20,659 nt of DNA, taken from the IMG/VR virus record IMGVR_UViG_2778261527_000010, positions 1-20,659 of that record; one strand, given 5' to 3'. The notes under the pieces are model-generated. The model was not told the origin of the DNA. It did not search any database and worked only from the letters and a program-made list of their open reading frames with translations. Shown one piece after another: positions 40 through 20,659 of the stretch (its first letter is position 1; each line of letters opens with the position of its first letter). Position numbers and translations under genes: made by a program. Source of the DNA: a virus (Duplodnaviria > Heunggongvirae > Uroviricota > Caudoviricetes).

Positions 40-402
40 GGGGCTGATTCTGGATTCGACGGGATTTGCGAAACCCAAGGTGCATGCCGAGGGGCGGTTG
101 GCCTCGTAAAAAGCCGCAAAAAATAGTCGCAAACGACGAAAACTACGCTTTAGCAGCTTAATAACCTGCTTAGAGCCCTCTCTCCCTAGCCTCCGCTCTT
201 AGGACGGGGATCAAGAGAGGTCAAACCCAAAAGAGATCGCGTGGAAGCCCTGCCTGGGGTTGAAGCGTTAAAACTTAATCAGGCTAGTTTGTTAGTGGCG
301 TGTCCGTCCGCAGCTGGCAAGCGAATGTAAAGACTGACTAAGCATGTAGTACCGAGGATGTAGGAATTTCGGACGCGGGTTCAACTCCCGCCAGCTCCAC
401 CA
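40..402 (+). ncRNA. ssrA: tmRNA (SsrA), 363 nt
   Basis: Sequence ggggctgattctggattcgacggg...ccagctccacca matches E. coli tmRNA as I recall it; tag reading frame gcaaacgacgaaaactacgctttagcagcttaa (ANDENYALAA*) present; 3' CCA end at 400-402. Confidence 0.95.
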
Positions 403-510: not shown

Positions 511-1284
511 TTACAACTTAAAGAGTTTCGCTTGCTCTGGATTAACAGCTTCGACGTAGTTTTTGACCCCTATTCTGTGCGGCTCATAATTGCTTGAATA
601 GAAATCAATCAGGAAGTCACTCATTTTCTGAGATGTGACTTTCATAACTCCCTTACTCAAAGTTAAATTAAACACGCTAATCTTTGACGATGGTGCCTGA
701 GTTTTACTCATGTTGGCTTGATAACCAGATTTACGCATTGCCACTAGTGCTTCGTCGTAAGCCGCTTGTAATTGGGCCAAATCGTTTGACGAGATGATCA
801 CATCATCCATAAACACACTTAGCTTGAGATCATGATGTTTGTTCAATCGGCGTAGTAAGCTACCAAAATAACTTTTATCTAAGCAGAGGGTTGCAAGTAT
901 TGGAGATTGAACAAAACCAAAAGGGAGGACATGCTTATGTGGACTATGGGACAAGTTTCTTACAGTTGAAAATGTTGAGATTTCCCGCGCTTGAGAATAG
1001 GTGAAGTAGCTCTTTAGATCACGGGTGATACGACTACGGCTCGTTGACTGAAAAAATTGTTTAATATCAACAACGGCAAAAAAATCACTTTTTAAGTGTA
1101 ATCTGGCAGCTTTAAGATGCCCACCAGTTCTTAGATGGTAAAAATAGAGTGGCGGAATCCACTTGTTTCTGACAGCCTGAAGTATCTTCCCTCCGACTTT
1201 ACGTGCCTCAACGCTTGGGACATAAACCCAAACCCCGGGCTTAATCTCAAATTTATCTTCCCACCTTTGAACTTCTATTGTCAT
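511..1284 (-). CDS. compact reverse transcriptase (257 aa), palm/finger domains only
   Basis: RT motifs in canonical order: motif A FFAVVDIKQFF, motif B' LPFGFVQSPILATL, motif C SVFMDDVII (F-x-D-D), K-T-containing domain 6; no thumb or effector extension; AT-richer than phage core. Confidence 0.8.
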   Translation of the reverse strand: MTIEVQRWEDKFEIKPGVWVYVPSVEARKVGGKILQAVRNKWIPPLYFYHLRTGGHLKAARLHLKSDFFAVVDIKQFFQSTSRSRITRDLKSYFTYSQAREISTFSTVRNLSHSPHKHVLPFGFVQSPILATLCLDKSYFGSLLRRLNKHHDLKLSVFMDDVIISSNDLAQLQAAYDEALVAMRKSGYQANMSKTQAPSSKISVFNLTLSKGVMKVTSQKMSDFLIDFYSSNYEPHRIGVKNYVEAVNPEQAKLFKL

Positions 1285-3097: not shown

Positions 3098-3579
3098 GAC
3101 AGCAGCCCTCCCACCGTTTTACTGATATCGCTTAAGGCAGACGTTGTCGTATCCTGCAAATTATTCAGCTGCGCACTGAGATCACCGAACATATCGGACA
3201 GGGATTCATCCACCCGTTTGAGCGACAGGGTGAACTCAATCCGGCGCGGCATACCATCGCGGAAAAACTCCGTTTTAGTCTGATTCAGTCCCTCAATCAC
3301 ATACATGCCGTAAATCGTGCCGCTGCCTTCAATCAGGGGCCATGCTTTTCCCTGTTCTGCCATCTGCTCCAGAGCCAGCAACGACAGCCTGCCGCCCGTT
3401 ATCTCCGGCATAAGAACACCAGAAAGCGTCAGCATGTCGTTGTCTGGTCCCAGAAACTGCGTGGACGGACGTCGATTGACCCGGCTGTTTGCCGCATGTC
3501 GCCAGCTGCGTTGATACTGCAGTTCCTGATACGGCACAGTGCGCAGCATAAACACGTACAATCCCAGCACCATCATCAT
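3094..3579 (-). CDS. U: P2 gpU-like tail protein
   Basis: 161 aa, MMMVLGLYVFMLRTVPYQELQYQRSWRHA... matches gpU; overlapping start/stop with T fragment and D. Confidence 0.85.
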   Translation of the reverse strand: MMMVLGLYVFMLRTVPYQELQYQRSWRHAANSRVNRRPSTQFLGPDNDMLTLSGVLMPEITGGRLSLLALEQMAEQGKAWPLIEGSGTIYGMYVIEGLNQTKTEFFRDGMPRRIEFTLSLKRVDESLSDMFGDLSAQLNNLQDTTTSALSDISKTVGGLLS

Positions 3580-3995
3580 GCTTCGTATCCCCCCTGATCG
3601 CTGTAGTTACTCCTGGCTTTTGCCTTCAGCCTGCGTTCACGTTCATCAAGCTGGCGGGCCACCTCCCGCGCAATATCCTGCGCACTTTGTCCTGGCTGCG
3701 TCTGAATGATGATCTGCATCGGTGCCTCAATCCGTTGAACGGGCGGCACAGTGGCTGCACGACTCACCATCGCTTCGCCGCCTTTCGCGGGAAGTGCCAA
3801 AGAATGCAACGGTGGAAGCTCTGCAGGCGCGGCAGCAACGCCCATCATTCCGGCAACAACGGCAGCCAGTGCAGCTGTATTTCTCCGGCTGGTCACATTT
3901 GCCGGGCCGTTAACAATTTCCGGCCCGTTTTCACCGACGATGCCAAACTGCCCGCGCGGGATATAGCCGCCGCTGTCATACATCCCCGCAAAGCC
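3576..3995 (-). pseudogene. T: 3' fragment (~135 codons) of tail tape-measure gene (gpT-like); 5' part deleted
   Basis: C-terminal tape-measure-like sequence (GYGFAGMYDSGGYIPRGQFGIVGENGPE...) ending in-frame before U; reading frame runs into unrelated portal-gene sequence at ~3984-4003. Confidence 0.7.
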
Positions 3996-4003
3996 ATATC
4001 CCC

Positions 4004-4399
4004 ATGACCGATGCTGCGCAGAACCAGGAGGATGTGAACAACCTCCGCAATGCGATGAAAAGCGCCAAAGGTCCTGGTAACTTCCGTAACCTGTTTATGT
4101 ACTCGCCTAACGGTAAAAAGGACGGGCTTCAGATTATCCCGTTGTCAGAAGTGGCGGCGAAGGATGAGTTCCTGAATATCAAGAACGTGAGCCGGGACGA
4201 CATGATGGCGGCGCATCGTGTGCCGCCACAAATGATGGGGATAATGCCTAATAATGTCGGGGGGTTTGGGGATATCGAAAAGGCAAGCACAGTATTTGTA
4301 CGAAATGAGCTACTGCCTCTACAAAAAATGTTTCTAGAAATAAATAATTGGTTAAACGATAGAATTATAAATTTTTCAACCTACGAACTAAAAATTTAA
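4004..4399 (+). pseudogene. Q: 3' fragment of portal gene (gpQ-like); 5' part deleted
   Basis: Translation ...FRNLFMYSPNGKKDGLQIIPLSEVAAKDEFLNIKNVSRDDMMAAHRVPPQMMGIMPNNVGGFGDIEKA... resembles P2-family portal C-terminus; opposite strand to tail genes as in P2; last ~25 codons are AT-rich. Confidence 0.6.
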
Positions 4400-4439: not shown

Positions 4440-6098
4440 TCATCTTGAAAGTATCACCCGTTCAAACAATGGCATTAATTGAGAATAAACATTATCATAA
4501 TGTTCATCATTTAAAAGATGATATTTATTTTCAAGTTTGATGCTATTAAAACCATCCATGAAACTCTCATAACCAACAGTTCCAATAATAATCTGATTTG
4601 TAAGGGAAAACCCATCCAAGCATAGTTTTATAAGCTTATGCGTATGCTCTGGATCCAAATCTTGTTGCTTTGGAGAGTCTATTACTATAGGCATATTCTC
4701 AACTGAAGAGTTGCTTTTCATAACACTAAGCAGCGCGTAGTGAAATGCAAATATACCTCGAGGACCTCGACTACCAGTCTTACCCTTAGTAATATTATTA
4801 TAACTACTAAGGCCACCTACCTTTGTATTTTCGACACCAAGCTCTTTAAGAGCTTTAGCGAAATACTCTTTGAAACAGTCATTTATTTTAACAGTTCTTT
4901 TCTTATCATTGTATACTTCTAATTCTTCTTGTAATTCTGTCAACTCGCCTTCTTTTCGACCAATCTCAACGAATAACTCATCTAACTGTGAAATAAAAGT
5001 AGATTCAATTTCATGGTATGCGGCAGATTTAATAACATCATGAAGCGTTATTTCCGATTGAGTTTCTAAAATCAGCGCCTGCAACGCCTCTGAAGCAGCC
5101 CTTGACTCTTCTAGCTTTTGATTCAATTTAGGAATATTTTCCTCAATCTTGCTTTTCTCATCTGCAAGAACAGCAATGTTTTTGAGCATTTCATCTCTAT
5201 GGTTTATATAATTATATTCATTTACTGAATAAGCAACATTATCATCTCGAAAATTCGAAATCTCAAATTCATTATCAATAATCGCAGTTATCTCTTTGAG
5301 TTCACTCTCAAGGAAATTCTTCCTAGAATATAACCTCAAAAGATTCAATCTATATTCTGTCTGAACTAAATTTAAATTAGAATATTCATTTAATATACGT
5401 TCCAACTTTGATTTATAAAAATCCAAATCAACATCAAATAAAACCACGCCAAAAGATTCATCAATCTTACTTTTGCTTCTTTTTAGAACCTTAACAAAAC
5501 CATCTAACTCTGAAATTTTAACTTTAATTTCTTTGATTTTCCCTTGAACTGTATAATATTCCTTTGGCTTAATTCCAGAGTGATAGTAAAGAATGTTTTT
5601 TTGCCATTCTGAGTACATACTCATGTTTTCGAAAGAATTTATCACCGCTTTCCATCCTTCATCCTGATCAATAAAGAATGGGGCAAACAAACAAGCAGGG
5701 TTTGCCTGAGTCGTAGCACCCGTATATTTATTATGTAATTCCAGTTTAAAACCAAATATATTTGAAACACGAGATGCTAATGACGAAATCGTGTTATACA
5801 CGACTAGATCATCATTCTTCAAATCAAAGACACCAATAATCTTTTTATAACGCAAAAAAATAAAATCATTTTCCCCGTTATTAATTTCCACCAGTGTAAC
5901 TATATCATCTGATTTCCAAGCATCATCAAGCCTTAAATCTCCACCTAATGTGTAATAAAGACTTTTAATCAGGCTTGATTTACCAACATCATTTGTACCA
6001 TATATGAAGTTAACCCCTTCTGAAAACTCATAAGAAAAAGCTTTTCTGTCTCTTAATGAGAGTATTTTTATATTTTTAAATTTAACGTTATTCTTCAT
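4440..6098 (-). CDS. SMC-like ABC ATPase, LmuB-like (DUF3732-type) component of a Lamassu-like defence system
   Basis: N-terminal Walker A GTNDVGKSS, long coiled-coil middle (E/K/L-rich), C-terminal IVIDSPKQQ resembling the D-Q-P Walker-B variant of LmuB; GAGGA RBS before ATG 6098; 11-nt overlap with upstream gene; AT-rich. Confidence 0.6.
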   Translation of the reverse strand: MKNNVKFKNIKILSLRDRKAFSYEFSEGVNFIYGTNDVGKSSLIKSLYYTLGGDLRLDDAWKSDDIVTLVEINNGENDFIFLRYKKIIGVFDLKNDDLVVYNTISSLASRVSNIFGFKLELHNKYTGATTQANPACLFAPFFIDQDEGWKAVINSFENMSMYSEWQKNILYYHSGIKPKEYYTVQGKIKEIKVKISELDGFVKVLKRSKSKIDESFGVVLFDVDLDFYKSKLERILNEYSNLNLVQTEYRLNLLRLYSRKNFLESELKEITAIIDNEFEISNFRDDNVAYSVNEYNYINHRDEMLKNIAVLADEKSKIEENIPKLNQKLEESRAASEALQALILETQSEITLHDVIKSAAYHEIESTFISQLDELFVEIGRKEGELTELQEELEVYNDKKRTVKINDCFKEYFAKALKELGVENTKVGGLSSYNNITKGKTGSRGPRGIFAFHYALLSVMKSNSSVENMPIVIDSPKQQDLDPEHTHKLIKLCLDGFSLTNQIIIGTVGYESFMDGFNSIKLENKYHLLNDEHYDNVYSQLMPLFERVILSR

Positions 6099-7167
6099 AA
6101 GAAACATCCTCAAAAGTCAACTTTATAATTGCATATATAGCAATCATAAATTTCTCTTCTTGATTTAATAAAGAGAAATCCCCGTCCCCCGCTGCAATTG
6201 TTTTTTCGAGTGTAAAGAAGAGGTCTCGAACAGGTATCTCACGATAATGCTCTATACTCTTTAGAGCCGATTGAAATTCCAGAAAATAAAGATAGTATAT
6301 TGAATTGACATTGAGCACTTTTATTGATATGCGTGTAAAAACTGATTGTAATTTAATCCCCTCATAAGGATCTGAGAAAGTACCAAGCAACATACAAACC
6401 TGTTCCCATTTTGGCGTTATTTTTATGCTTGCAATGAGTCCAGATAATAAATCAGTTACAAATTCTGAAGATATACCTTTCTTTAGTACTAAATCTTCAA
6501 AAGTTTTGATATCACTAGAAGCAACACTAACCTTCTCATTACACTTATTGATTAATAATTTAGTGAATGCTGTTGAATTAATACCATGATCATCCCCAAA
6601 GTAAGAATTCAAAAAAACTGCAACTTTCCCGTATAAATGTGAGTTAGGATCTAACAAACTAAGATCAGATGTTTTAAATTTTATTTTATCAAGAGGAACT
6701 TCTTTTTTAGTATTTAGCTGCTCTTGAACCTTACTAATTATAATTTCCTTATGCTCATTATTAAGATCACTACCTTTTTCGTTATTATCATTTAAGAAAT
6801 CGAATCCAGCATTCGATAACAGAACCATATAAATTTCGTGACCAACGAATTGATAGAAATGGTCATATAGTTTTGCAACAAATGATTTAGGTTTAGCTTT
6901 TGTTGCGTTCACTATTGCTGCGAGTGTCCATTTACCATCTTTTTTTGTTTTAACTTGGATAAACTCAGCACTAGTCGGAGAAACAGATGAATTCAATACA
7001 AGAATATCGTCATGATATTCAAATAGAAATAAATATTTCTCCTTTTCTTTTTGTTTCTCAAGTAAATAATTTATCCCCCAAGAGGCTTGATATGAAAAGC
7101 CTCTCAACGCGTTTTCACCGCCCCGTTCGGCTTGATTTACTGTAATTAACGCATCTGATAACGCCAC
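6088..7167 (-). CDS. LmuA-like effector with N-terminal Cap4/DUF4297-type PD-(D/E)xK-like nuclease region
   Basis: N-terminus GFSYQASWGINYLLE...EYHDDILVLN...FIQVKTKK resembles the DUF4297 D...QxK core; GTG start, in-frame stop two codons upstream; AT-rich; sits at the P2 old/tin position. Confidence 0.5.
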   Translation of the reverse strand: MALSDALITVNQAERGGENALRGFSYQASWGINYLLEKQKEKEKYLFLFEYHDDILVLNSSVSPTSAEFIQVKTKKDGKWTLAAIVNATKAKPKSFVAKLYDHFYQFVGHEIYMVLLSNAGFDFLNDNNEKGSDLNNEHKEIIISKVQEQLNTKKEVPLDKIKFKTSDLSLLDPNSHLYGKVAVFLNSYFGDDHGINSTAFTKLLINKCNEKVSVASSDIKTFEDLVLKKGISSEFVTDLLSGLIASIKITPKWEQVCMLLGTFSDPYEGIKLQSVFTRISIKVLNVNSIYYLYFLEFQSALKSIEHYREIPVRDLFFTLEKTIAAGDGDFSLLNQEEKFMIAIYAIIKLTFEDVSYEE

Positions 7168-7310
7168 TCTATATATCCCTATTGTACTGCTTTTTTTTGA
7201 TACAAATTACCTTAGCTTCACCATCAAGTCCACAGATTCATGGCTAAGCGCGCGCTCGTATCCCCGCCACGCCTGCCCGCTTTATGTAGTGGTTTTCATG
7301 CACCTGCATG

Positions 7311-7342
7311 ATCTACGCAAAAGCCCACCAGTTCTGGCGGGC
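7311..7342 (-). terminator. rho-independent terminator after the tum/DinI-like operon
   Basis: Minus-strand stem gcccgccag / ctggtgggc (one mismatch) followed by ttttgcg. Confidence 0.45.
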
Positions 7343-7477
7343 CTTAGCAAAAACGATCCTCAAACGATCATGCGATCTCATGCGGCATAGACATGCACTA
7401 CAGAGCTAACGCCTCGCAAGGGCTCGTTGTTCAACCTTGCTGACGCCAGAAACAAGTTCAGACGCCAGCAACGTTTC

Positions 7478-7711
7478 TTAATGCAGCCAGCTGTCGTCTT
7501 CCCACACCTTCTGCATAATTTTCATCACTTGCTTCCTTTCTTCGTCCAGTTGCAGTCCGGTCAGTTCCACACCGTTAGAGCTACCTTTGCGGATACGAAT
7601 TACCGTTTTGGGATACAGGGGGTGCAGATTACGGTAAAGCTCGGATTCAAGGGCGTCCAGGGTCGACTGGCTAATCTTCTGCTCTTTATCGATCATTATT
7701 TCAATGCGCAT
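7478..7711 (-). CDS. DinI-family protein (186 Tum C-terminal-domain-like)
   Basis: MRIEIMIDK...LDALESEL...IRIRKGSSNGVELTGL...KQVMKIMQKVWEDDSW parallels E. coli DinI; AGGTGA RBS 6 nt before ATG 7711. Confidence 0.75.
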   Translation of the reverse strand: MRIEIMIDKEQKISQSTLDALESELYRNLHPLYPKTVIRIRKGSSNGVELTGLQLDEERKQVMKIMQKVWEDDSWLH

Positions 7712-7721
7712 AAAAGTCACC

Positions 7722-7910
7722 TCAGCTGATGACATCCATTGAGCGGTTGTATTCGTGGCTTCTGATTTTTGCCATGAGTTCATCAGTCAATTCAGAAACC
7801 CACTGCAGAGCCAGTCCCTTCTCTTCATCACTACACTCACTGGCCGCTACAAGCTTAAGAAAAAAATCAATGCGCTGGAGCTTCAAAGACTCCAAAAAAT
7901 AGTCCTGCAT
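7722..7910 (-). CDS. small protein (62 aa), first gene of the LexA-controlled operon; possibly the N-terminal part of a split tum
   Basis: AGGAGG RBS 4 nt before ATG 7910; ends 10 nt before the DinI-like start; a frame open upstream of the DinI start overlaps it. Confidence 0.5.
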   Translation of the reverse strand: MQDYFLESLKLQRIDFFLKLVAASECSDEEKGLALQWVSELTDELMAKIRSHEYNRSMDVIS

Positions 7911-7951
7911 CTTTCCTCCTATGACACCACACGCAATACTGTATGTATAAC

Positions 7952-7971
7952 CACTGTTTATAATTACAGTA
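7952..7971. promoter_or_regulatory. LexA (SOS) box upstream of the tum-like operon
   Basis: cACTGTttataattACAGta: perfect CTGT-N8-ACAG with AT-rich spacer; a second half-match (tactgtatgtataacc) lies adjacent at 7937-7953. Confidence 0.7.
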
Positions 7972-8063
7972 TATAATAATATTACTGATGTAAAACGTTT
8001 TTTTACGTTTATCAGCCTGATATGCCTGGTATTATTAAGAGCACGAATGGTTAACCATCGTAA

Positions 8064-10478
8064 TTAATACAGGTTTCGCCACTTATCATCTTCCTGCAAA
8101 CGCTGGTTCCGATAGAAGATACGCAGGCCTGCTCCTGACGGAATACTGCCGCCGCGAAGGAGTAAATCGACCTCTTTCTCGCTACCATCAAACCCTCTGG
8201 ACTTCAGCTCATACTCGAGCTGCTGTCGCTGATGGTCTGTAATTCGCTGTTTGTAGTCTTTACGCCGTTTCGGTTTAACCAGGTGTAACCTTGCTGCCAG
8301 TTCCCGGCGTTCTTTTTTGCTCATACTGTGCAGGTAATCGTGCAACTCCTTGTCATCCATGCGGGTGATATCCGTTCTGGTATCCCCATCAGCTGATTTG
8401 TCTTTCCCTTGTTGGTTCAAATTTTCAGCAAGGGGACAGTTATTGCCACGAGTCCAAGGGGCGCAAGCGCCCTGGTCGGCTGCCGCCTCCTGAACGTCAA
8501 CGGCTTTACGAACCATTTTCCACTTCACTGCATGAGTGCAGATCTTGCCCTCTGCAATGGGTGACCAGATGCCATAAATACGAATGCCGTGATCGCCATA
8601 GGCGGTCGGCTCTTCGTTGATTTCATAAGCGGTTCTGATGAGGTGATATTTACGGGGAACCAGTACGCCGCCCTGCTTCATGATGTAGGTGGCAAAACAA
8701 CCAGCATCAGCAGCAGCCAGGATGGCATCAAGGCGCGGGTTATCCAGTACCGGCGCACCTGCTTTTTTGTCCCCCTGTTGCCTTGCCGCCTGACCAGCCA
8801 GCAATCGCAGTTCACGGTAAGCCTGACGCCCCGGAATGCCAAAGAAGCGGAATTGCTGAACACGATGCAAAGACGCCCAGGCATTCACGTATTCAGCGTT
8901 ATCACGCAGAGATTTACCCGTTTCCTTGCTGATCTCGCCAGCCAGACCACGCCCGTCAATGTTCTTACTGATGTATTTCGCTATGTAGCTTGTCGGCGTT
9001 CCTTTGCGCGGGTTAATCAGCTCAGACTTAAAGCGCGGCCCCGTGTTATTGCCCAGCTCCTCGCGGTCTTCACGGATAGCAAACTTACGCAACAATGCAG
9101 TAATGGCTCGGCGGTCTTTTTTGCGCATGAAACACAACAGGTGCCAGTGAACTGTGCCGTCGTGATGCGGCTCAGCCACCCGCACGCCATACCAGCGCAA
9201 CCCGGCTTTGTGCATCGCCTTACGAAATGCAGCAAACATACCGACCAGATAATCGCTGCTTTGTCTTACCGTCGCATTTGTCCAGGTCGGGTTGGGCCTG
9301 CCGTTATTTAGCGTGGAATGGAAACGTGACGGACAGGTGATGGTGTAGAAAACGGCGCAGTCACCGCGCATTTCCGCGATAAGCTCCAGACCTTTAACAC
9401 AGGCCATCATCTCATTGCGGCGATGCGCAGGGTTGCTGCTGCTGGCGTTTACCACATCCTCCATGTCCAGCGTGTCGCCGTCTTCGTTCACCAGTTCATG
9501 AGAACGGAAAAACTCCAGCGACTTACGGCGCTGCTCACGTTTATGCAACACGGCTTCATAGCTGACATAGGGAGATGCTTTTTTGCTGACAAGGCAGACA
9601 GCACGCAACTGCTCTTCCCGCCATTCGCAACGCATCTTCCATAATTTCCGATACCACCAGTCGGCGCACAACATACGCGCCAGCGAACCCGGAATGAGTT
9701 CATAGGGCACGGGTTTACGGCGGTTTCTTTTCCGACGGAGTTGCTCAAACGCAGGCGGGATGACATCCAGACGCAGGGTTTCCGCTGCCACCCTTTCCCA
9801 TGTCTTGCGGATTTCTTCTGGCTTAACGTCATCGGTGGCATACAAATCGCCACAAGCGGCATCAAGGCACATACTCATATGCGCAGCTACCAGGGTGGAC
9901 AGGCGTTTCACCTGATCCTGACTCATTTCAGGCAGGATCAGCAGGCCGTCCAGCCCTTCATGGCTTGCCATAAAGCGAAAAGATGCAGATAGCTGACTGT
10001 CGCGTACATGCTCCAGTCGTTCCAGACATGGCTTAATCGTCTCACGTAAATAGCGGGAATAAGCCTTTGGCCTGCCCAGGCTGCTGAAGTATTCAATACG
10101 TTGCATCAGCGGCTTGCTGATATGGGAAGGCTGGGCGTTGACGTCCGCCAGAATGACCATATCCGGATTAAAACACTGCTGCTCATGCGCCAGCTTTGCC
10201 CGACTAATGAGCTTATCCTGTTCCATTTCGCGCTGGACAGGATCACGGGATTCATTAAAGAAATAACGCTCCCAGACCTGATCACTCAGCGCCTCACGGC
10301 GCAGCTGTTCCTGCTCGTTATCGGCAGCGTACAGAGTGATCAGGTTTGAAAGCGTAGAAACCGGCGCAACTTCCGCCGGGTCCAGATAAGGGTTAATGGC
10401 CTTTTTCGGGCTGTTCCATGAGAACGATGCGGCAGCTTCGTTAAAGCCGCAGCAGTTGTTCATATCGGCATGACTCAT
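8064..10478 (-). CDS. A: P2 gpA-like rolling-circle replication initiator endonuclease (804 aa)
   Basis: Active-site tyrosine motif [13 protein letters not shown] and metal-binding [15 protein letters not shown] as in P2 A; ATGA overlap with upstream dam-like gene. Confidence 0.9.
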
Positions 10479-13273: not shown

Positions 13274-13906
13274 ATGATACAGGTAAAGGTTGGAGAGAAT
13301 ACAGGGGGAAGAGAGGCTATCCATAGACTAATGGCAGCCTATGATTTCAAGTCCAGACAGCAACTTTGCGATCACTTAGGCGCATCAAAAAGCACCATGG
13401 CAAACAGATACTTAAGAGATAGTTTTCCTGCAGAGTGGGTGATTCAGTGCGCCTTGGAAACAGGAGTTTCTTTATTGTGGCTAACCACCGGACAGGGGGA
13501 GCCAGGTCCAAACATTGAACCTAAAAAAAATATCAATTCCGTGAACTCCAGCAAGGTTGTACCTCTTTCTGAACTAGTATCTCCTGAAATTGACAAGGCG
13601 ACTCTCAACGGTGGTTTATTGGTCGATGCTGGAAAAGCAATCATTGATAGCAGCATACTCCCCTCAGACTCAAGCAACCTACTGCTGGTGACTACTTCTG
13701 GTGATTCTTATTTAATAGATCGCAACCAAACACCACCAGTAAATGGTATGTGGTTAGTCGATATCGACGGGATAAAAAGCATCGTTAAATTGACTCGACT
13801 CCCGGGAAACAAATTAGTAGTGCATCAGGATGATTCATCGTTTGAGTGCGGTCTGGATGACATTGAGGTAGTAGGCCGCGCACTGAAAATCATTAAGAGC
13901 CTTTGA
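13274..13906 (+). CDS. cI: CI-like immunity repressor (210 aa)
   Basis: N-terminal HTH (SRQQLCDHLGASKSTMANRYLR); divergent from apl; immediately upstream of int as in 186. Confidence 0.75.
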   Translation: MIQVKVGENTGGREAIHRLMAAYDFKSRQQLCDHLGASKSTMANRYLRDSFPAEWVIQCALETGVSLLWLTTGQGEPGPNIEPKKNINSVNSSKVVPLSELVSPEIDKATLNGGLLVDAGKAIIDSSILPSDSSNLLLVTTSGDSYLIDRNQTPPVNGMWLVDIDGIKSIVKLTRLPGNKLVVHQDDSSFECGLDDIEVVGRALKIIKSL

Positions 13907-14928: not shown

Positions 14929-16164
14929 ATGGACGAAAAAAAATCCAGTACTCAATTAGAATCAGAAAAGAAAAATGCACTCTGGATTGATCACTTTCTT
15001 GAACGACTATTGAGCCATGAAGAATTAAATCCACCATTCAACATTAAAGGCGATATAGCCAGTGATTTTTCTAATCGATGTAAAATTTATATGACTTTAA
15101 TTGATGAATCAATAAAAGCAGACATGAATGGATGCGGTAGGGAACTTAGAGTTCTAAAAGGACGAGTTGCAAATATTCATAAGTGCATACAAAAAACTCT
15201 AGAGGAGTTTTTGTCTGGAGATATTAAAAAAGCATATGACATTTTCGATGACATTATGTCAAAGGAGGCAACAATAGCCCAACTAAATCGAATTAGTATC
15301 TTGCTAAAAGATTTTTGCAATAAGGAAAAGCCACTTTATCGGGTCAGAAAATCAGAAACGCCTTTGATTGAGCACAACCAAATATTTCATATTCCGTTTT
15401 CAAAAAGACATTTAGTGAATGCTCAAAGATATTCAGTCGCAGGCCAACCCTGCTTATATCTCGGTACATCCTTGTACGTATGTTGGCAAGAGATGGGAAA
15501 GCCAGATTTTGATAAATTATATATATCATCCTTCGTTACAAACGATGTAAATTCAACAATTTTAAATTTTGCTTCTCCTCACCTTTCACTTCCAATTAAA
15601 AAAACTGTTGATGAAAATAAAATATATGATGAAAACAGAACAAAAGCATCATACTTGATATTCTGGCCATTACTAATCGCTTGCAATTATTTAAAACGCG
15701 TAGAAAATTCATCATTCACACCTGAATATATAATCCCAAATTTATTAATGCAGTGGATCGGTCGTCGGGTTAAATCACCAATAGCGGGGATAGCATATTA
15801 CTCTACAAAAATGCCGAATTCTAGGAGCAGTAAATATTCTGTTAATGTTGTATTACCACCTAAAGCAACCTATAAGCAATCTATTCAATATGATTTTTGT
15901 CCAAAACTAGCTTCTTACTTCGAATTTACAGCCCCTATGTCTTGGCAAGTACTTAAAACCTTAGATTATCAAAATCAGTTTGAGATATCGAATGAACAAA
16001 GAATTGCCATCGATTACTTACGAAAAAAAGAAAAATTATCAGGTATAGCGAATTTTGAGGAAGACATCGTGAAGCTATATCCTCTTACAGATTTTCACAA
16101 ACTTGAATTATTGGTTGATCGGTTATTCAAACATCAAAAAATCGAACATACACTGCACACGTAA
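14929..16164 (+). CDS. RES-domain protein with N- and C-terminal extensions (411 aa)
   Basis: RES signature in order: PLYRVRKSE ... NAQRYSVAGQPCLYLGTSLYVCWQEMG (R, E) ... PIAGIAYYSTKMPNS (S); strongly AT-rich versus flanking int; lies between int and attR. Confidence 0.6.
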   Translation: MDEKKSSTQLESEKKNALWIDHFLERLLSHEELNPPFNIKGDIASDFSNRCKIYMTLIDESIKADMNGCGRELRVLKGRVANIHKCIQKTLEEFLSGDIKKAYDIFDDIMSKEATIAQLNRISILLKDFCNKEKPLYRVRKSETPLIEHNQIFHIPFSKRHLVNAQRYSVAGQPCLYLGTSLYVCWQEMGKPDFDKLYISSFVTNDVNSTILNFASPHLSLPIKKTVDENKIYDENRTKASYLIFWPLLIACNYLKRVENSSFTPEYIIPNLLMQWIGRRVKSPIAGIAYYSTKMPNSRSSKYSVNVVLPPKATYKQSIQYDFCPKLASYFEFTAPMSWQVLKTLDYQNQFEISNEQRIAIDYLRKKEKLSGIANFEEDIVKLYPLTDFHKLELLVDRLFKHQKIEHTLHT

Positions 16165-16480: not shown

Positions 16481-16557
16481 TCCCTTAAGTTCCTAGCCGC
16501 TTATCTATAACTATGGAAAAATGTTAACCCTGACTGTATGTTAACAAAGGGATGTAT

Positions 16558-17765
16558 ATGTCGGTTTTTCATAACTGGCTGCTTGATATCGCAAGCGGGA
16601 ATTACTTTATCTACATCAAACGCCTTTCTGCAAACGACACAGGCGCAACAGGTGGCCATCAGGTCGGACTTTATATCCCCTCAAATATCGTTGAAAAGCT
16701 TTTTCCATCTATCAATCATACTCGCGAACTGAACCCTTCAGTCTTCCTTACTGCGCATGTATCATCCCATGATTGCCCTGATACCCAAGCACGCGCAATT
16801 TATTACAACAACCGTTATTTTGGTAAGACCCGAAACGAAAAAAGAATTACGCGCTGGGGGAGAGGAAGTCCATTACAGAACCCTGAAAATACAGGAGCCC
16901 TCACAATTCTTGCTTTCAGGTTAAACGAACAGAACACTGACTGTTCCGAGGTAGATATATGGGTCTGCGTCAATCCCGATGAAGAGGATATCATCGAGTC
17001 TGCTATTGGCGAAATCATACCTGGAACCCTAATTTCCGGCCCTGCCGGACAAATTTTGGGCGGATTGTCTCTTCAGCAAACTCCAGTAAATCATAAATAT
17101 GTTATTCCTGAAGACTGGAAGAAGCGTTTTCCTTCTGGAAACGAAATTATTCAATATGCTGCTGGCCATTATGCTAAAAACTCCAAGGATCCAGATGAGC
17201 AACTGATTGACCGTCGGCGTGTCGAGTATGATATTTTCTACTCGTCGAGGAATTACATGTTCTTGATATTATTAAGAAAGGATTCGATTCTGTAGATGAG
17301 TTTATTGCATTAGCCAACTCTGTCAGTAATCGACGTAAATCAAGGGCAGGCAAATCACTTGAACTTCACCTAGAGAAGCTTTTTATCGAGCACGGACTAC
17401 GGCATTTCTCCACTCAGGCAGTTACTGAAGGTAATAAAAAACCAGATTTCCTGTTTCCTTCAGCAGAGGCATATCATAACGTTGAATTTCCTGTAGAAAA
17501 CTTACGTATGCTGGCAGTAAAGACCACCTGCAAAGATCGCTGGCGTCAGATACTGAATGAAGCAGATAAAATCCATCAGGTACATTTATTTACACTGCAA
17601 GAAGGTGTTTCTTCAGCACAATACCGAGAAATGAAAGATGCGGGTGTCAGACTCGTTGTACCATCAACTTTACATAAAAAATACCCAGAAGCAGTTAGAG
17701 AAGAATTAATAACGCTCGGAGCATTCATTACTGAGCTGATAGAGCTTTACGCTGAACTATCATAG
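16558..17765 (+). pseudogene. EcoRII-family (CCWGG-type) restriction endonuclease gene, disrupted by a 1-nt frameshift near 17234-17238
   Basis: N-terminus MSVFHNWLL..YIKRLSANDTGATGGHQVGLYIPS matches EcoRII as I recall it; frame 0 stops at 17293-17295 (246 aa); homologous sequence continues in the +2 frame from 17238 (LLVEELHVLDIIKKGF...) to stop at 17763-17765. Confidence 0.8.
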
Positions 17766-17770
17766 GCTGA

Positions 17771-17793
17771 CTCCCGGCTTAAAAGGCCGGGAG
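17771..17793. terminator. bidirectional hairpin between convergent R and M genes
   Basis: ctcccggc-ttaaaag-gccgggag perfect 8-bp stem. Confidence 0.5.
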
Positions 17794-17799
17794 ATGTTC

Positions 17800-19233
17800 T
17801 CAAGGCTGCCCAGTCTTACCAGCATCAGCAGAAACAGCTTTGAGGATATAGGGTTCCAGAAGTCTGGCAACAGCTTCAAATACTGGCACCACAACTGAGT
17901 TACCGAACTGCCGATATGACTGAGTATCTGAAACCGGAATACGGAATGGTTTCCCTCCAGGTTTTTCAAATCCCATAAGGCGTGCGCACTCTCGGGGAGT
18001 CAGCCTGCGTGGTCGACGAGCCTGATTACTCTCATTCATAAAGTCAGCCTCTCCCGTTGCCATATCCCAACCACGATCAATAAGAATTTCTGATCCGTCT
18101 TTGTGATATCTGGCAGAAAGTGTGCGTGCAATGCTTTCCTTATTCTCAGGATTGACCAACCCAAAGCCAAAACCATTCCCCTTGGCTGCATGCTTTTTGG
18201 CGTAGTTATAAAGGTACTCCCATAGTTTTGGCGTAAGTATATATTTACTGTCGACTACAGGCTCCAGCAATTCACCAAATGATGGGCGGTGTTCCGGATA
18301 AAAACGACTGATATCACGCAAGGTAAACCCCTTGTGAATATTCAGATCTCGTCTAAATCCGACCAGAACAATACGTTCACGATGCTGAGGCAAAAAATGC
18401 TTCCCATCGATAATCTTTGGATCGTTTTTTCCCATTTCTGCAGCATCGGCAACTTCGTAGCCCAGCTCGTCAAGGGTCTCCATAATGACTTTGAAAGTTT
18501 TACCCTTATCATGGCTCTTCAGATTTTTGACATTTTCCAGCACAAAAATTGCCGGTTTTTTTGCTCGTATAATACGTGCCACGTCAAAAAAAAGTGTTCC
18601 TTGTGCTTCACATTCAAAACCATGCGCACGACCAAGTGAGTTTTTCTTACTAACACCAGCAAGGCTAAATGGCTGGCACGGGAACCCCGCAAGAAGCACA
18701 TCATGATCCGGCACATGCTCATCAATATATGCATAAGCATCCGTTTCCAATACATCGGTTTTATCACTCAGCGTGACTTCCCGAATATCGAGATTGAATT
18801 TATGCACCTGTTCATCGTTAAACCAGTTGGCCTTGTATGTACGCACAGCATCTTTATTCCATTCACTGGTAAAAACACACTGGCCTCCAATGGCCTCAAA
18901 ACCTTTCCGTATCCCTCCAATTCCAGCAAATAAGTCAATGAAGCGGAAAGCATATTCCGGATGGTTTGCAGGTGGTTCTGGTAGCATCTTACGCAGAAGA
19001 GACTCTTCTACTGAAGTCAACGATTTTGGTAAACACTTGCCATTAATCCAGCGGTTAATGGTTTCACGGCTCCACTCATTTTTTCCGACTTTTCTCAGTA
19101 ATTCAGCCACATACTTCTGATCATAGATTTCCAGCACTTTCTCGATAAGCTTTTTATCATTTTCCTGTCGCAGCTTTTCTTCCGCCTCGGCTTCCTTCAG
19201 CAGATGCTGTGCCAACACTTCAAATTCAGACAT
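17800..19233 (-). CDS. DNA (cytosine-5) methyltransferase, M.EcoRII/Dcm-like (477 aa)
   Basis: C5-MTase motifs [36 protein letters not shown]; collinear with M.EcoRII as I recall it; GGAGG RBS 5 nt before ATG 19233 (ORF track start at 19275 is probably too long). Confidence 0.9.
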
Positions 19234-19594
19234 AATTCCTCCAAGGGGTCTAATGGGTGAAACTTTATCACTCATTCAACCCAGAAGGAAATGTTTTATC
19301 TGGATATTTAAACAGTGACTACAACGTAATCTAGCACTGGTGATGCTTTGTTAGGCATAGAGAATCATTCTATATACGACTAATGACAGAAAAACAGCAG
19401 ACAAGTAGTTTGTTCATAAATTAACGCATACTATGTGTCTACGGTTTTCGAGACCGGTCCAATCATCAAACGAAACATAAAATTAGCTCACATTATGAGG
19501 AAAAGTATCTTTTTTGTACTATGTAAATTCAAAGGCTTAGCCTCATTTCTCCGATGGTTTTCTCAACACTACTGGTTGTGAGCCCTTGCAATGA

Positions 19595-20413
<819 letters not shown>

Positions 20414-20482: not shown

Positions 20483-20659
20483 TTACACGGTGTCTGGTTC
20501 TTCTGGCCACTCAATATCCGGTGCAGTTGATGTATCAACACGGTTCAGCAACACCCGATACTTTTTCCAGGCTTCCAGCAATGAGGTTTCTTCCTCCGTT
20601 GCGATTTCCAGATCTACAGCATCCTGAAGTGGCGCAATATGCTCACTGGCTACCTGCAT
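20483..20659 (-). CDS. tfa: tail-fibre assembly protein, C-terminal part (partial; 5' end beyond window)
   Basis: Translation ...[45 protein letters not shown]... typical of Tfa C-termini of E. coli prophages. Confidence 0.75.

What the first reader, a model, noticed from the sequence alone, without database searches (positions are those of the whole stretch)
7478..7971. SOS-controlled tum-like antirepressor operon, possibly split by a frameshift
A perfect LexA box (CTGT-N8-ACAG, 7954-7969) overlaps the promoter of a two-ORF operon whose second product is DinI-like, as in the 186 p95-tum arrangement downstream of the replication gene. A DinI-frame reading is open upstream of the predicted start and overlaps the 62-aa ORF. 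The combined length (~140-145 aa) is close to the ~146 aa I recall for 186 Tum, so the pair may be one tum gene split by a frameshift, or a natural two-gene arrangement. Either way, induction of this defective prophage is wired to the host SOS response.
Basis: partly seen in the sequence, partly recalled or inferred. Interest (0 to 1): 0.35.

Follow-up and report, generated by a model that had tools for sequence, protein, structure and literature searches.

The report
SOS-controlled tumA–tumB antirepressor operon
This is the known LexA-repressed antirepressor operon of Fels-2/PSP3-type P2-family prophages: a 62-aa Tum-like antirepressor gene followed by a separate DinI-like gene, a natural two-gene arrangement and not a frameshifted tum, so the finding is correct but ordinary.

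Summary
A perfect CTGT-N8-ACAG LexA box (7954-7969) lies 41 nt upstream of a 62-aa ORF (7910-7722, minus strand). A 77-aa DinI-family ORF (7711-7478) follows, just downstream of replication gene A.

The 62-aa protein is 97% identical to Fels-2 STM2728. At profile level it is homologous to the N-terminal half of 186 Tum. The pair matches the annotated tumA/tumB genes of phage PSP3.

The frameshift idea is rejected:
- In relatives from about 30 enterobacterial species tumA is 62 codons in nearly all loci.
- The tumA-tumB spacer varies from 9 to 12 nt, and all three relative frames occur.
- tumB is missing from about a third of loci.
- Both genes show dN/dS of about 0.07.

The promoter (TTTACA, 17 nt, TACTGT) has the same layout as the annotated 186 p95. 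Both it and the box are conserved in 36 of 38 loci.

A refinement: the operator is double. A second overlapping box has the geometry of the colicin E1 operator.

The prophage is defective, but its cI, apl, int and A genes read as full-length ORFs.

This arrangement is already in the literature (Bunny 2002, as cited by Lemire 2011). LexA binding and antirepression are inferred from orthology.

The parts
7989..7994 (-). -35 hexamer TTTACA of the tumAB promoter (p95 equivalent)
   Evidence: It lies 17 nt upstream of TACTGT. The hexamer is kept in the related loci while the spacer sequence differs. The layout is that of the annotated 186 p95. Function is inferred.
7966..7971 (-). -10 hexamer TACTGT, which is also the left half of LexA box 1
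   Evidence: The identical hexamer is annotated as the p95 -10 in 186. It is conserved in 36 of 38 loci.
7952..7971 (-). LexA box 1, TACTGTAATTATAAACAGTG (core CTGT-N8-ACAG at 7954-7969)
   Evidence: It is unique in the window. A CTG-N10-CAG box lies at the same place in 36 of 38 related loci, in 80 of 80 186-type loci and in 79 of 80 PSP3-type loci.
7937..7956 (-). LexA box 2, CAGTGGTTATACATACAGTA (core GTG-N10-CAG at 7939-7954), sharing one G with the core of box 1
   Evidence: It is present in 23 of 34 Fels-2-type loci and in no 186-type or PSP3-type locus. The geometry is that of the ColE1 cea operator TGCTGTATATAAAACCAGTGGTTATATGTACAGTA. LexA binding was not tested.
7915..7920 (-). Ribosome-binding site AGGAGG of tumA
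   Evidence: Read from the sequence. A GGAGG motif is conserved before the start codon in relatives.
7722..7910 (-). tumA: 62-aa Tum-N-domain-like protein, the inferred CI antirepressor
   Evidence: phrog_698 at E 5.9e-38, with cross-hits to the 186 Tum N-half families. 97% identical to Fels-2 STM2728. dN/dS 0.068. Predicted as a two-helix hairpin, pLDDT 89.5.
7718..7723 (-). Ribosome-binding site GAGGTG of tumB, overlapping the tumA stop codon
   Evidence: A purine-rich motif is conserved in the 9-12 nt spacer of all loci that carry tumB.
7478..7711 (-). tumB: 77-aa DinI-family protein
   Evidence: Pfam DinI at E 2.5e-23. 99% identical to Fels-2 STM2726.1, 78% to PSP3 TumB, 42% to 186 Tum 71-146 and 30% to E. 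coli DinI. dN/dS 0.073.
7313..7345 (-). Probable intrinsic terminator: an 11-bp G+C-rich stem followed by UUUUG
   Evidence: RNA fold of 7300-7480, z-score -3.3. It lies in the variable cargo region, because homology to the Klebsiella phages stops at the tumB stop codon, 7480.
13274..13906 (+). cI: 186-family immunity repressor, the inferred target of TumA
   Evidence: Pfam Phage_CI_repr (E 5.4e-31) and Phage_CI_C (E 5.6e-28) were the only families reported, with no autocleaving peptidase domain among them.

Best explanation
The locus is a LexA-repressed two-gene operon, tumA-tumB, of a Fels-2-type member of the P2/186 phage family.

In an undamaged cell, LexA sits on a double operator. Box 1 contains the -10 hexamer and box 2 overlaps it by one base. 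This keeps the promoter TTTACA-17-TACTGT shut.

DNA damage makes LexA cleave itself, and the operon is transcribed. TumA is a 62-aa two-helix protein homologous to the N-terminal half of 186 Tum. It binds the prophage's 186-type CI repressor and stops it binding its operators, so the early lytic operon (apl, cII, fil, replication genes B and A) is switched on. This CI shows no autocleaving peptidase domain. TumB is a DinI homologue translated from its own ribosome-binding site. It most likely modulates RecA filament activity, and it is dispensable.

The two genes are separate by nature. 186 is the lineage in which the two modules are fused.

Because head, lysis and most tail genes are deleted here, SOS induction can at most give derepression, excision and replication. 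It cannot give phage particles.

Shown here: the sequence anatomy, the homologies, the conservation and the purifying selection. Inferred from orthologues: LexA binding, the TumA-CI interaction and the role of TumB.
For: - Anatomy.
- Orthology: 97% and 99% protein identity to the Fels-2 pair; the same arrangement as PSP3 tumA ('UV induction of prophage') and tumB.
- Homology to Tum: PHROG cross-hits place TumA and the 186 Tum N-half in related families, in register. hhalign of the Fels-2 type against the 186 type gives E 7e-4, and 186 type against PSP3 type gives E 8e-6, all over the same core. TumB is 41% identical to Tum 71-145 and passes the Pfam DinI cut-off.
- Promoter and operator: -35, -10 and LexA box are conserved in 36 of 38 loci while the spacer diverges. 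The layout equals the annotated 186 p95. The double box matches the ColE1 colicin operator. The literature says such operators bind two LexA dimers (PMC2994835).
- Independent genes: spacer 9-12 nt, all three frames, tumB lost in about 13 of 33 loci. dN/dS is 0.068 and 0.073. 186-type loci are fused in 78 of 80; PSP3-type loci are split in 80 of 80.
- Target: a 186-type CI is present and no S24 peptidase domain was reported for it.
- Class-level pairing: 186-type Tum occurs with 186-class CI in 64 of 68 loci. Fels-2-type TumA occurs with other CI classes.
- Literature: Lemire et al. 2011 (PMC3121763) state that Fels-2 and PSP3 have tum split in two. They add that in PSP3 the upstream gene is the antirepressor and the downstream gene the DinI homologue, citing Bunny, Liu and Roth 2002.
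Against: - Pairwise BLASTP finds no similarity between the 62-aa protein and 186 Tum. The homology rests on profiles. hhalign probability is only 26% for the Fels-2 type against the 186 type, and E is 0.059 against the PSP3 type.
- The antirepressor activity of a stand-alone TumA is known to me only through a personal communication quoted second-hand. The primary paper could not be read.
- The -10 hexamer is weak, and the generic promoter scan found nothing.
- Box 2 has GTG where CTG is expected.
- One nearly invariant TumA (71-98% identity) accompanies CI proteins that are only 32-93% identical, with no co-variation. That is not what a tight one-to-one partnership predicts.
- No experiment was possible.
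Confidence: 0.86

Rival explanations
1. The pair is a single 186-like tum gene broken by a frameshift, either a pseudogene or a sequencing error. The functional product would be a fusion of about 140 aa.
For: The DinI frame is open for 24-25 codons upstream of its ATG and overlaps the 62-aa ORF. The combined length is 139 aa against 146 aa for Tum. In 186-type phages the two modules really are fused (78 of 80 loci).
Against: - The same stop, 10-nt spacer and ATG occur in Fels-2 and in other E. coli records.
- Across 20 loci the spacer is 9-12 nt, with relative frames 0, 1 and 2. The upstream open stretch ranges from 1 to 25 codons.
- tumB always starts at MR(I/V)E, as DinI itself does, behind a conserved purine-rich ribosome-binding site.
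- The 24 extra residues match no family beyond the DinI domain, whose hit starts at residue 38 of the 101-aa ORF.
- Both ORFs have dN/dS of about 0.07.
- tumA persists without tumB in about 13 of 33 loci.
Confidence: 0.02
2. The operon is SOS-controlled, but the 62-aa protein is not the CI antirepressor. It would have some other SOS-linked role, and this prophage would be induced by another route or not at all.
For: - There is no direct assay for this family. Databases call it 'hypothetical protein', and it has no Pfam or NCBIfam model.
- TumA does not co-vary with CI.
- Similarity to the characterised 186 Tum N-half is remote.
Against: - It has the same position, the same promoter and operator layout and the same DinI partner as 186 tum and PSP3 tumA.
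- The profile homology is in register.
- PSP3 tumA is annotated as needed for UV induction.
- Literature quoted assigns antirepression to the upstream gene.
- The CI shows no self-cleavage domain, so an antirepressor is needed for SOS induction.
- Tum type and CI class do pair at class level.
Confidence: 0.08
3. The LexA-like palindrome is not a working operator. The small operon would be expressed constitutively or under phage control.
For: The bare CTGT-N8-ACAG motif appears by chance in 18 of 100 shuffles of the window. The promoter scan found no consensus promoter.
Against: - The extended motif never occurs in shuffles.
- A box occurs at the same place in 36 of 38 Fels-2-type loci, 80 of 80 186-type loci and 79 of 80 PSP3-type loci, although the flanking sequence diverges.
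- The one locus with a broken tumA (L035) is also one that has lost the box.
- The 186 box and p95 are annotated as SOS-dependent.
Confidence: 0.03

Closest known systems
Salmonella phage Fels-2, STM2728 and STM2726.1 (DinI family)
   Same: Proteins are 97% and 99% identical. The 10-nt spacer, the double LexA operator (box 1 differs at one base, box 2 at two) and the position after gene A are the same.
   Different: The cargo downstream differs: an orf97-like gene in Fels-2, Lamassu LmuA/LmuB here. Fels-2 is a complete phage; this prophage has lost its head, lysis and most tail genes.
Phage PSP3 tumA / tumB
   Same: A two-gene split of tum behind a LexA box, downstream of A. tumB is 78% identical. 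tumA is annotated as similar to the 5' end of 186 tum and as needed for UV induction.
   Different: TumA is only about 22% identical and belongs to a different PHROG family. The spacer is 3 nt and in frame. There is a single LexA box 20 nt from the start codon.
Coliphage 186 Tum and promoter p95
   Same: A LexA-repressed promoter whose -10 (TACTGT) is the left half of the box; a position after gene A; an N-terminal antirepressor module plus a DinI-like module; a 186-family CI as target.
   Different: In 186 the two modules form one 146-aa protein, with further internal starts annotated. There is a single LexA box. The N-module is recognisable only at profile level. orf97 follows in the operon.
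Gifsy-1/-2/-3 dinI-gfoA/gftA operons of Salmonella
   Same: A LexA-controlled operon that combines a dinI homologue with a small antirepressor that inactivates a non-cleavable repressor (PMC3121763).
   Different: The gene order is reversed (dinI first). The phages are lambdoid. The antirepressor and repressor belong to other families. No sequence comparison with them was made here.
Colicin E1 (cea) double SOS operator of plasmid ColE1
   Same: Two LexA boxes whose 16-bp cores share one base: CTG-N10-CAG followed by GTG-N10-CAG. The ColE1 and Fels-2 operators are identical at 33 of 38 positions by my count from the sequences, and box 2 of Fels-2 is identical over 22 nt.
   Different: In ColE1 the boxes lie just downstream of the -10 (TTTTAT). 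Here box 1 contains the -10. The regulated genes are unrelated.
E. coli DinI
   Same: TumB matches the whole Pfam DinI domain and starts with the same MRIE. The C-terminal W-E-(D/S)-x-x-W helix is kept.
   Different: Only 30% identical. It scores below the NCBIfam equivalog cut-off (43 bits against 111). It is phage-borne and paired with an antirepressor.

Membership tests
Tum-type SOS antirepressor module of 186-like P2-family phages (186 tum; PSP3 and Fels-2 tumA/tumB) | It lies directly downstream of replication gene A, on the same strand | tested here: met
   A is at 8064-10478 (minus) and tumA starts 153 nt later. The order is the same in 186, Fels-2, PSP3 and 33 genome loci.
Tum-type SOS antirepressor module of 186-like P2-family phages (186 tum; PSP3 and Fels-2 tumA/tumB) | A LexA box overlaps the promoter (sequence level) | tested here: met
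   TACTGTAATTATAAACAGTG contains the -10 TACTGT, with TTTACA 17 nt upstream. This is conserved in 36 of 38 loci. The layout equals the annotated p95.
Tum-type SOS antirepressor module of 186-like P2-family phages (186 tum; PSP3 and Fels-2 tumA/tumB) | LexA actually binds and represses; transcription is SOS-inducible | not testable with these tools
   Inferred from 186 (annotation) and from the literature on Fels-2.
Tum-type SOS antirepressor module of 186-like P2-family phages (186 tum; PSP3 and Fels-2 tumA/tumB) | The first product is homologous to the N-terminal half of Tum or to TumA | tested here: met
   Met at profile level. Tum 1-70 against phrog_698 gives E 5.9e-6 over positions 6-44 in register. 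TumA gives E 1.1e-8 against phrog_8554 and E 0.002 against phrog_1993. hhalign gives E 7e-4. It is not met by pairwise BLASTP.
Tum-type SOS antirepressor module of 186-like P2-family phages (186 tum; PSP3 and Fels-2 tumA/tumB) | A DinI-like module is fused or lies immediately downstream | tested here: met
   Pfam DinI at E 2.5e-23. 41% identity to Tum 71-145. 78% identity to PSP3 TumB.
Tum-type SOS antirepressor module of 186-like P2-family phages (186 tum; PSP3 and Fels-2 tumA/tumB) | The same element carries a 186-family CI repressor without a self-cleavage domain | tested here: met
   The 210-aa CI hit only Phage_CI_repr and Phage_CI_C in Pfam.
Tum-type SOS antirepressor module of 186-like P2-family phages (186 tum; PSP3 and Fels-2 tumA/tumB) | The product binds CI and prevents operator binding | not testable with these tools
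   Known for 186 Tum (Shearwin et al. 1998, cited). Assigned to the upstream gene in PSP3 by a personal communication quoted.
DinI family (Pfam PF06183) | Full-length match above the Pfam gathering score | tested here: met
   82.6 bits against a cut-off of 24.2; profile positions 1-63 of 63.
DinI family (Pfam PF06183) | Orthologue of chromosomal E. coli DinI (NCBIfam equivalog NF007893) | tested here: not met
   43.2 bits against a cut-off of 111. It is a phage paralogue, not dinI itself.
Colicin-type double overlapping SOS operator | Two LexA-type boxes whose 16-bp cores share one base | tested here: met
   Box 1 core is at 7954-7969 and box 2 core at 7939-7954. The pattern is present in 23 of 34 Fels-2-type loci. 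The register is identical to ColE1.
Colicin-type double overlapping SOS operator | Two LexA dimers bind | not testable with these tools
   Stated for colicin operators in PMC2994835. Not tested for this sequence.
Frameshifted (pseudogenised) single tum gene | Close relatives carry one continuous ORF, and the break is private to this sequence | tested here: not met
   All 33 genome loci and the Fels-2-type phage records inspected carry the split. Spacer length and frame vary, and both ORFs are under purifying selection.

The most novel reading that the evidence does not exclude
The Fels-2-type TumA may be a broad-specificity antirepressor that docks on the conserved N-terminal DNA-binding domain of CI.

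One almost invariant TumA (71-98% identity) accompanies CI proteins of several immunity classes. Their N-terminal domains stay 52-97% identical, while their C-terminal domains fall to 25%.

If so, a defective prophage such as this one keeps a tightly double-locked tumA. On DNA damage it could induce, or block lysogeny by, heteroimmune P2-family phages in the same cell. This would be the kind of cross-talk shown for the Gifsy antirepressors.
Probability: 0.25. Interest if true: 0.4.

Novelty: already known. Interest (0 to 1): 0.14.

Why it matters
It matters little as a discovery. The split tum of Fels-2 and PSP3 and its LexA control have been in the literature since 2002.

There are three practical points:
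- The TumA family has no curated name. It has no Pfam or NCBIfam model, PHROGs lists it as 'unknown function', and records call it 'hypothetical protein' or, wrongly, 'levan regulatory protein'. SOS-inducibility of many P2-family prophages is therefore invisible in routine annotation.
- A prophage that can no longer make particles still carries what reads as an intact SOS switch. DNA damage, including that caused by antibiotics, may still trigger derepression, excision, replication and expression of a cell-division inhibitor. That could carry a fitness cost for the host.
- The Fels-2-type operator is a colicin-like double LexA site. This predicts very tight repression and late induction.

Tried and rejected
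- Pairwise BLASTP of the 62-aa protein against 186 Tum found nothing. Profiles were needed.
- The generic sigma-70 scan found no promoter. The promoter was placed by comparison with the annotated 186 p95 and by conservation.
- The terminator scan missed the hairpin at 7313-7345. It was found by folding.
- The search for related loci with the four-sequence Tum alignment failed because it had no conserved stretch. The single protein was used instead.
- The primary paper (Bunny, Liu and Roth 2002, PMC151935) is not held. Its content is cited only through Lemire et al. 2011.
- The structure prediction of TumA gave a confident two-helix hairpin. Foldseek against the PDB then gave only generic helical hairpins with E above 0.7, which is not informative.
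- Rfam found no RNA family in the region.
- The LexA heterology index was not computed, because I do not hold the published frequency table.
- I considered and rejected the idea that the Lamassu genes belong to the SOS operon. A G+C-rich hairpin with a U tract lies between them, and the shared homology ends at the tumB stop codon. Read-through cannot be excluded.

Full report
**1. What is in the sequence**

All features below are on the minus strand.
- A P2 A-type replication gene ends at 8064 (804 aa).
- 153 nt later an ORF of 62 aa begins (7910-7722), behind a strong ribosome-binding site (AGGAGG, 7920-7915).
- Its TGA stop is followed by 10 nt containing GAGGTG, and then by a 77-aa ORF (7711-7478) that begins MRIE.
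- The second protein is a full-length DinI-family member (Pfam E 2.5e-23, 82.6 bits against a cut-off of 24.2).
- The DinI frame is indeed open for another 24 codons upstream, giving a 101-aa ORF at 7783-7478. That extension adds no family match.
- CTGT-N8-ACAG occurs once in the window, at 7954-7969. The bare motif is not very improbable (0.22 expected). The extended match TACTGTWWWTWTWWACAGT never arose in 100 shuffles.

**2. Promoter and operator**

The generic promoter scan found nothing. In phage 186 the annotated SOS promoter p95 is TTCACA, 18 nt, TACTGT, and its -10 is the left half of the LexA box. The window has TTTACA (7994-7989), 17 nt, TACTGT (7971-7966), which is the same layout.

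I collected 33 related loci from different enterobacterial species, plus phage records.
- TTTACA, the 17-nt distance and a CTG-N10-CAG box are conserved in 36 of 38 loci, while the spacer sequence drifts.
- One exception is a contig that ends 53 nt upstream of the gene.
- The other exception is L035, where tumA itself is broken and the box has decayed.
- 186-type loci have a box in 80 of 80, and PSP3-type loci in 79 of 80.

A refinement of the finding: the operator is double. Immediately after box 1 lies GTGGTTATACATACAG (core 7954-7939), which is GTG-N10-CAG sharing one G with box 1.
- This second box is present in 23 of 34 Fels-2-type loci.
- It is absent from all 186-type and PSP3-type loci.
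- The geometry is that of the colicin E1 operator. TGCTGTATATAAAACCAGTGGTTATATGTACAGTA matched plasmid ColE1 exactly, just upstream of the colicin E1 start.
- Box 2 of Fels-2 is identical to the ColE1 box over 22 nt.
- Colicin operators of this kind are reported to bind two LexA dimers and to give very tight repression (PMC2994835).
- That the window's operator behaves the same way is an inference.

**3. Identity of the two proteins**

The 62-aa protein:
- It belongs to phrog_698 (E 5.9e-38).
- The N-terminal 70 residues of 186 Tum hit the same family at E 5.9e-6 over positions 6-44, in register. Both proteins hit phrog_8554 (1.1e-8 and 3.4e-12) and phrog_1993 (0.002 and 1.5e-23).
- My own family alignments gave hhalign E 7e-4 (Fels-2 type against 186 type), 8e-6 (186 type against PSP3 type) and 0.059 (Fels-2 type against PSP3 type). 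All covered the same core around a conserved Cys...AL motif.
- Pairwise BLASTP finds nothing, so the homology is remote but supported.
- It is 97% identical to Fels-2 STM2728.

The 77-aa protein is 99% identical to Fels-2 STM2726.1, 78% to PSP3 TumB, 42% to 186 Tum 71-146 and 30% to E. coli DinI.

PSP3 annotates the pair as tumA ('similar to 5' end 186 tum; UV induction of prophage') and tumB ('similar to dinI and 3' end of 186 tum').

Lemire et al. 2011 state that Fels-2 and PSP3 have tum split in two. [quoted passage not shown] Their source is Bunny, Liu and Roth 2002 (PMC3121763). I could not read that primary paper.

**4. Frameshift or two genes**

The answer is two genes.
- tumA is 62 codons in nearly all related loci.
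- Across 20 loci the tumA-tumB spacer is 9, 10, 11 or 12 nt, and PSP3 has 3 nt. The relative frame is 0, 1 or 2.
- A purine-rich ribosome-binding site is always present, and tumB always starts at ATG-CG.
- The open stretch upstream in the DinI frame ranges from 1 to 25 codons, so the long one in the window is an accident of its lineage.
- tumB is absent or truncated in about 13 of 33 loci that keep tumA and its LexA box, and in 30 of 80 PSP3-type loci.
- Median dN/dS is 0.068 for tumA and 0.073 for tumB, at median dS of about 1.
- The fused form belongs to the 186 lineage (78 of 80 loci).

**5. Context**

The element carries a 186-family CI. Phage_CI_repr and Phage_CI_C were the only Pfam families reported, with no self-cleaving peptidase domain among them. 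It also carries int, an Apl/Cox-like excisionase, cII, fil, a DksA-like protein, a methylase and A, all as full-length ORFs.

It is defective. A tape-measure C-terminal fragment (3576-3983) abuts a portal C-terminal fragment (4004-4399), so the head, lysis and most tail genes are gone. A similar junction is annotated as two pseudogenes in E. coli ACN001.

Homology to the Klebsiella phages ends exactly at the tumB stop codon. What follows is variable cargo, here Lamassu LmuA/LmuB. Between tumB and lmuA the RNA folds into two hairpins, and the second (7345-7313) has a U tract. I therefore read the operon as ending there, although read-through is possible.

**6. Mechanism**

Shown here:
- the anatomy;
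- the conservation of the promoter, the operator and both genes;
- the homologies;
- the presence of the presumed target.

Inferred from 186, PSP3 and Fels-2:
- LexA represses the operon.
- DNA damage relieves repression.
- TumA binds CI and blocks its DNA binding.
- TumB modulates RecA filaments and is accessory.

In this remnant the outcome can only be derepression, excision and replication, without particles.

**7. An unexpected detail**

TumA (71-98% identical to the window's) accompanies CI proteins only 32-93% identical, with no correlation (Spearman 0.12 and 0.01). The CI N-terminal domain is better conserved (52-97%) than the C-terminal domain (25-93%).

At class level there is pairing. 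186-type Tum occurs with 186-class CI in 64 of 68 loci. Fels-2-type TumA occurs with other classes.

This fits a TumA that recognises a conserved face of the CI DNA-binding domain and may act across immunities. That remains a hypothesis.

TumA is predicted to be a two-helix hairpin (pLDDT 89.5). The fold search was uninformative.

**8. Verdict**

The system is already known, and the window is a near-identical copy of the Fels-2 module inside a defective prophage next to ssrA. Interest is low. The small additions are the colicin-type double operator, the evidence that tumB is dispensable, the lack of TumA-CI co-variation, and the absence of any curated name for the TumA family.

Noticed in passing
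window 40-402 (+): A tmRNA gene (ssrA, tag peptide ANDENYALAA) lies at the left edge. The prophage remnant and the other islands lie next to it. From memory, ssrA is also the Fels-2 attachment site.
   Followed up: partly
window 3576-4399: This is a deletion junction. A tape-measure C-terminal fragment (3576-3983, minus) abuts a portal C-terminal fragment (4004-4399, plus), so head, lysis and most tail genes are missing. E. coli ACN001 has a similar junction annotated as pseudogenes, with a TIR gene as cargo (L199 4177-5108).
   Followed up: partly
window 4440-7167 (-): A Lamassu defence system, LmuA (Cap4-type nuclease, 6088-7167) and LmuB (SMC-like ATPase, 4440-6113), occupies the variable hotspot. 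The hotspot begins exactly at the tumB stop codon. It lies downstream of the SOS promoter, separated from it by a hairpin with a U tract.
   Followed up: partly
window 511-1284 (-): A short reverse transcriptase ORF (257 aa, Pfam RVT_1, best PADLOC hit retron RT type VI) lies between ssrA and the small ORF at 1688-1939 that sits where ogr lies in E. coli ACN001. It may be truncated. No msr/msd RNA was looked for.
   Followed up: no
window 14929-16164 (+): A 411-aa ORF starts 4 nt after the integrase stop codon. It has no Pfam or PADLOC match.
   Followed up: no
window 16552-19275: An EcoRII-like restriction gene appears truncated (247 aa, matching positions 1-243 of a 365-position model). It converges on a full-length Dcm-type cytosine methylase (17800-19275, minus). 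This may be an orphaned methylase.
   Followed up: no
window 19298-19317 (-): A second LexA-like site, CACTGTTTAAATATCCAGAT (CTG-N10-CAG with an A+T-rich spacer), lies 25 nt upstream of the methylase start codon. It could be chance: 8 such cores occur in the window against about 4 expected.
   Followed up: no
window 19640-20413 (+) and 20526-20659 (-): A PD-T4-3 defence gene (PADLOC E 7.6e-140) and a partial IS009 RNA (Rfam RF02111) lie here. With the other systems, the window reads as a dense defence island around the prophage remnant.
   Followed up: no
loci L005-L037, L200-L278: Fels-2-type TumA is nearly invariant while the partner CI varies from 32% to 93% identity, with the N-terminal domain better conserved than the C-terminal domain. 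186-type fused Tum pairs with 186-class CI in 64 of 68 loci.
   Followed up: partly
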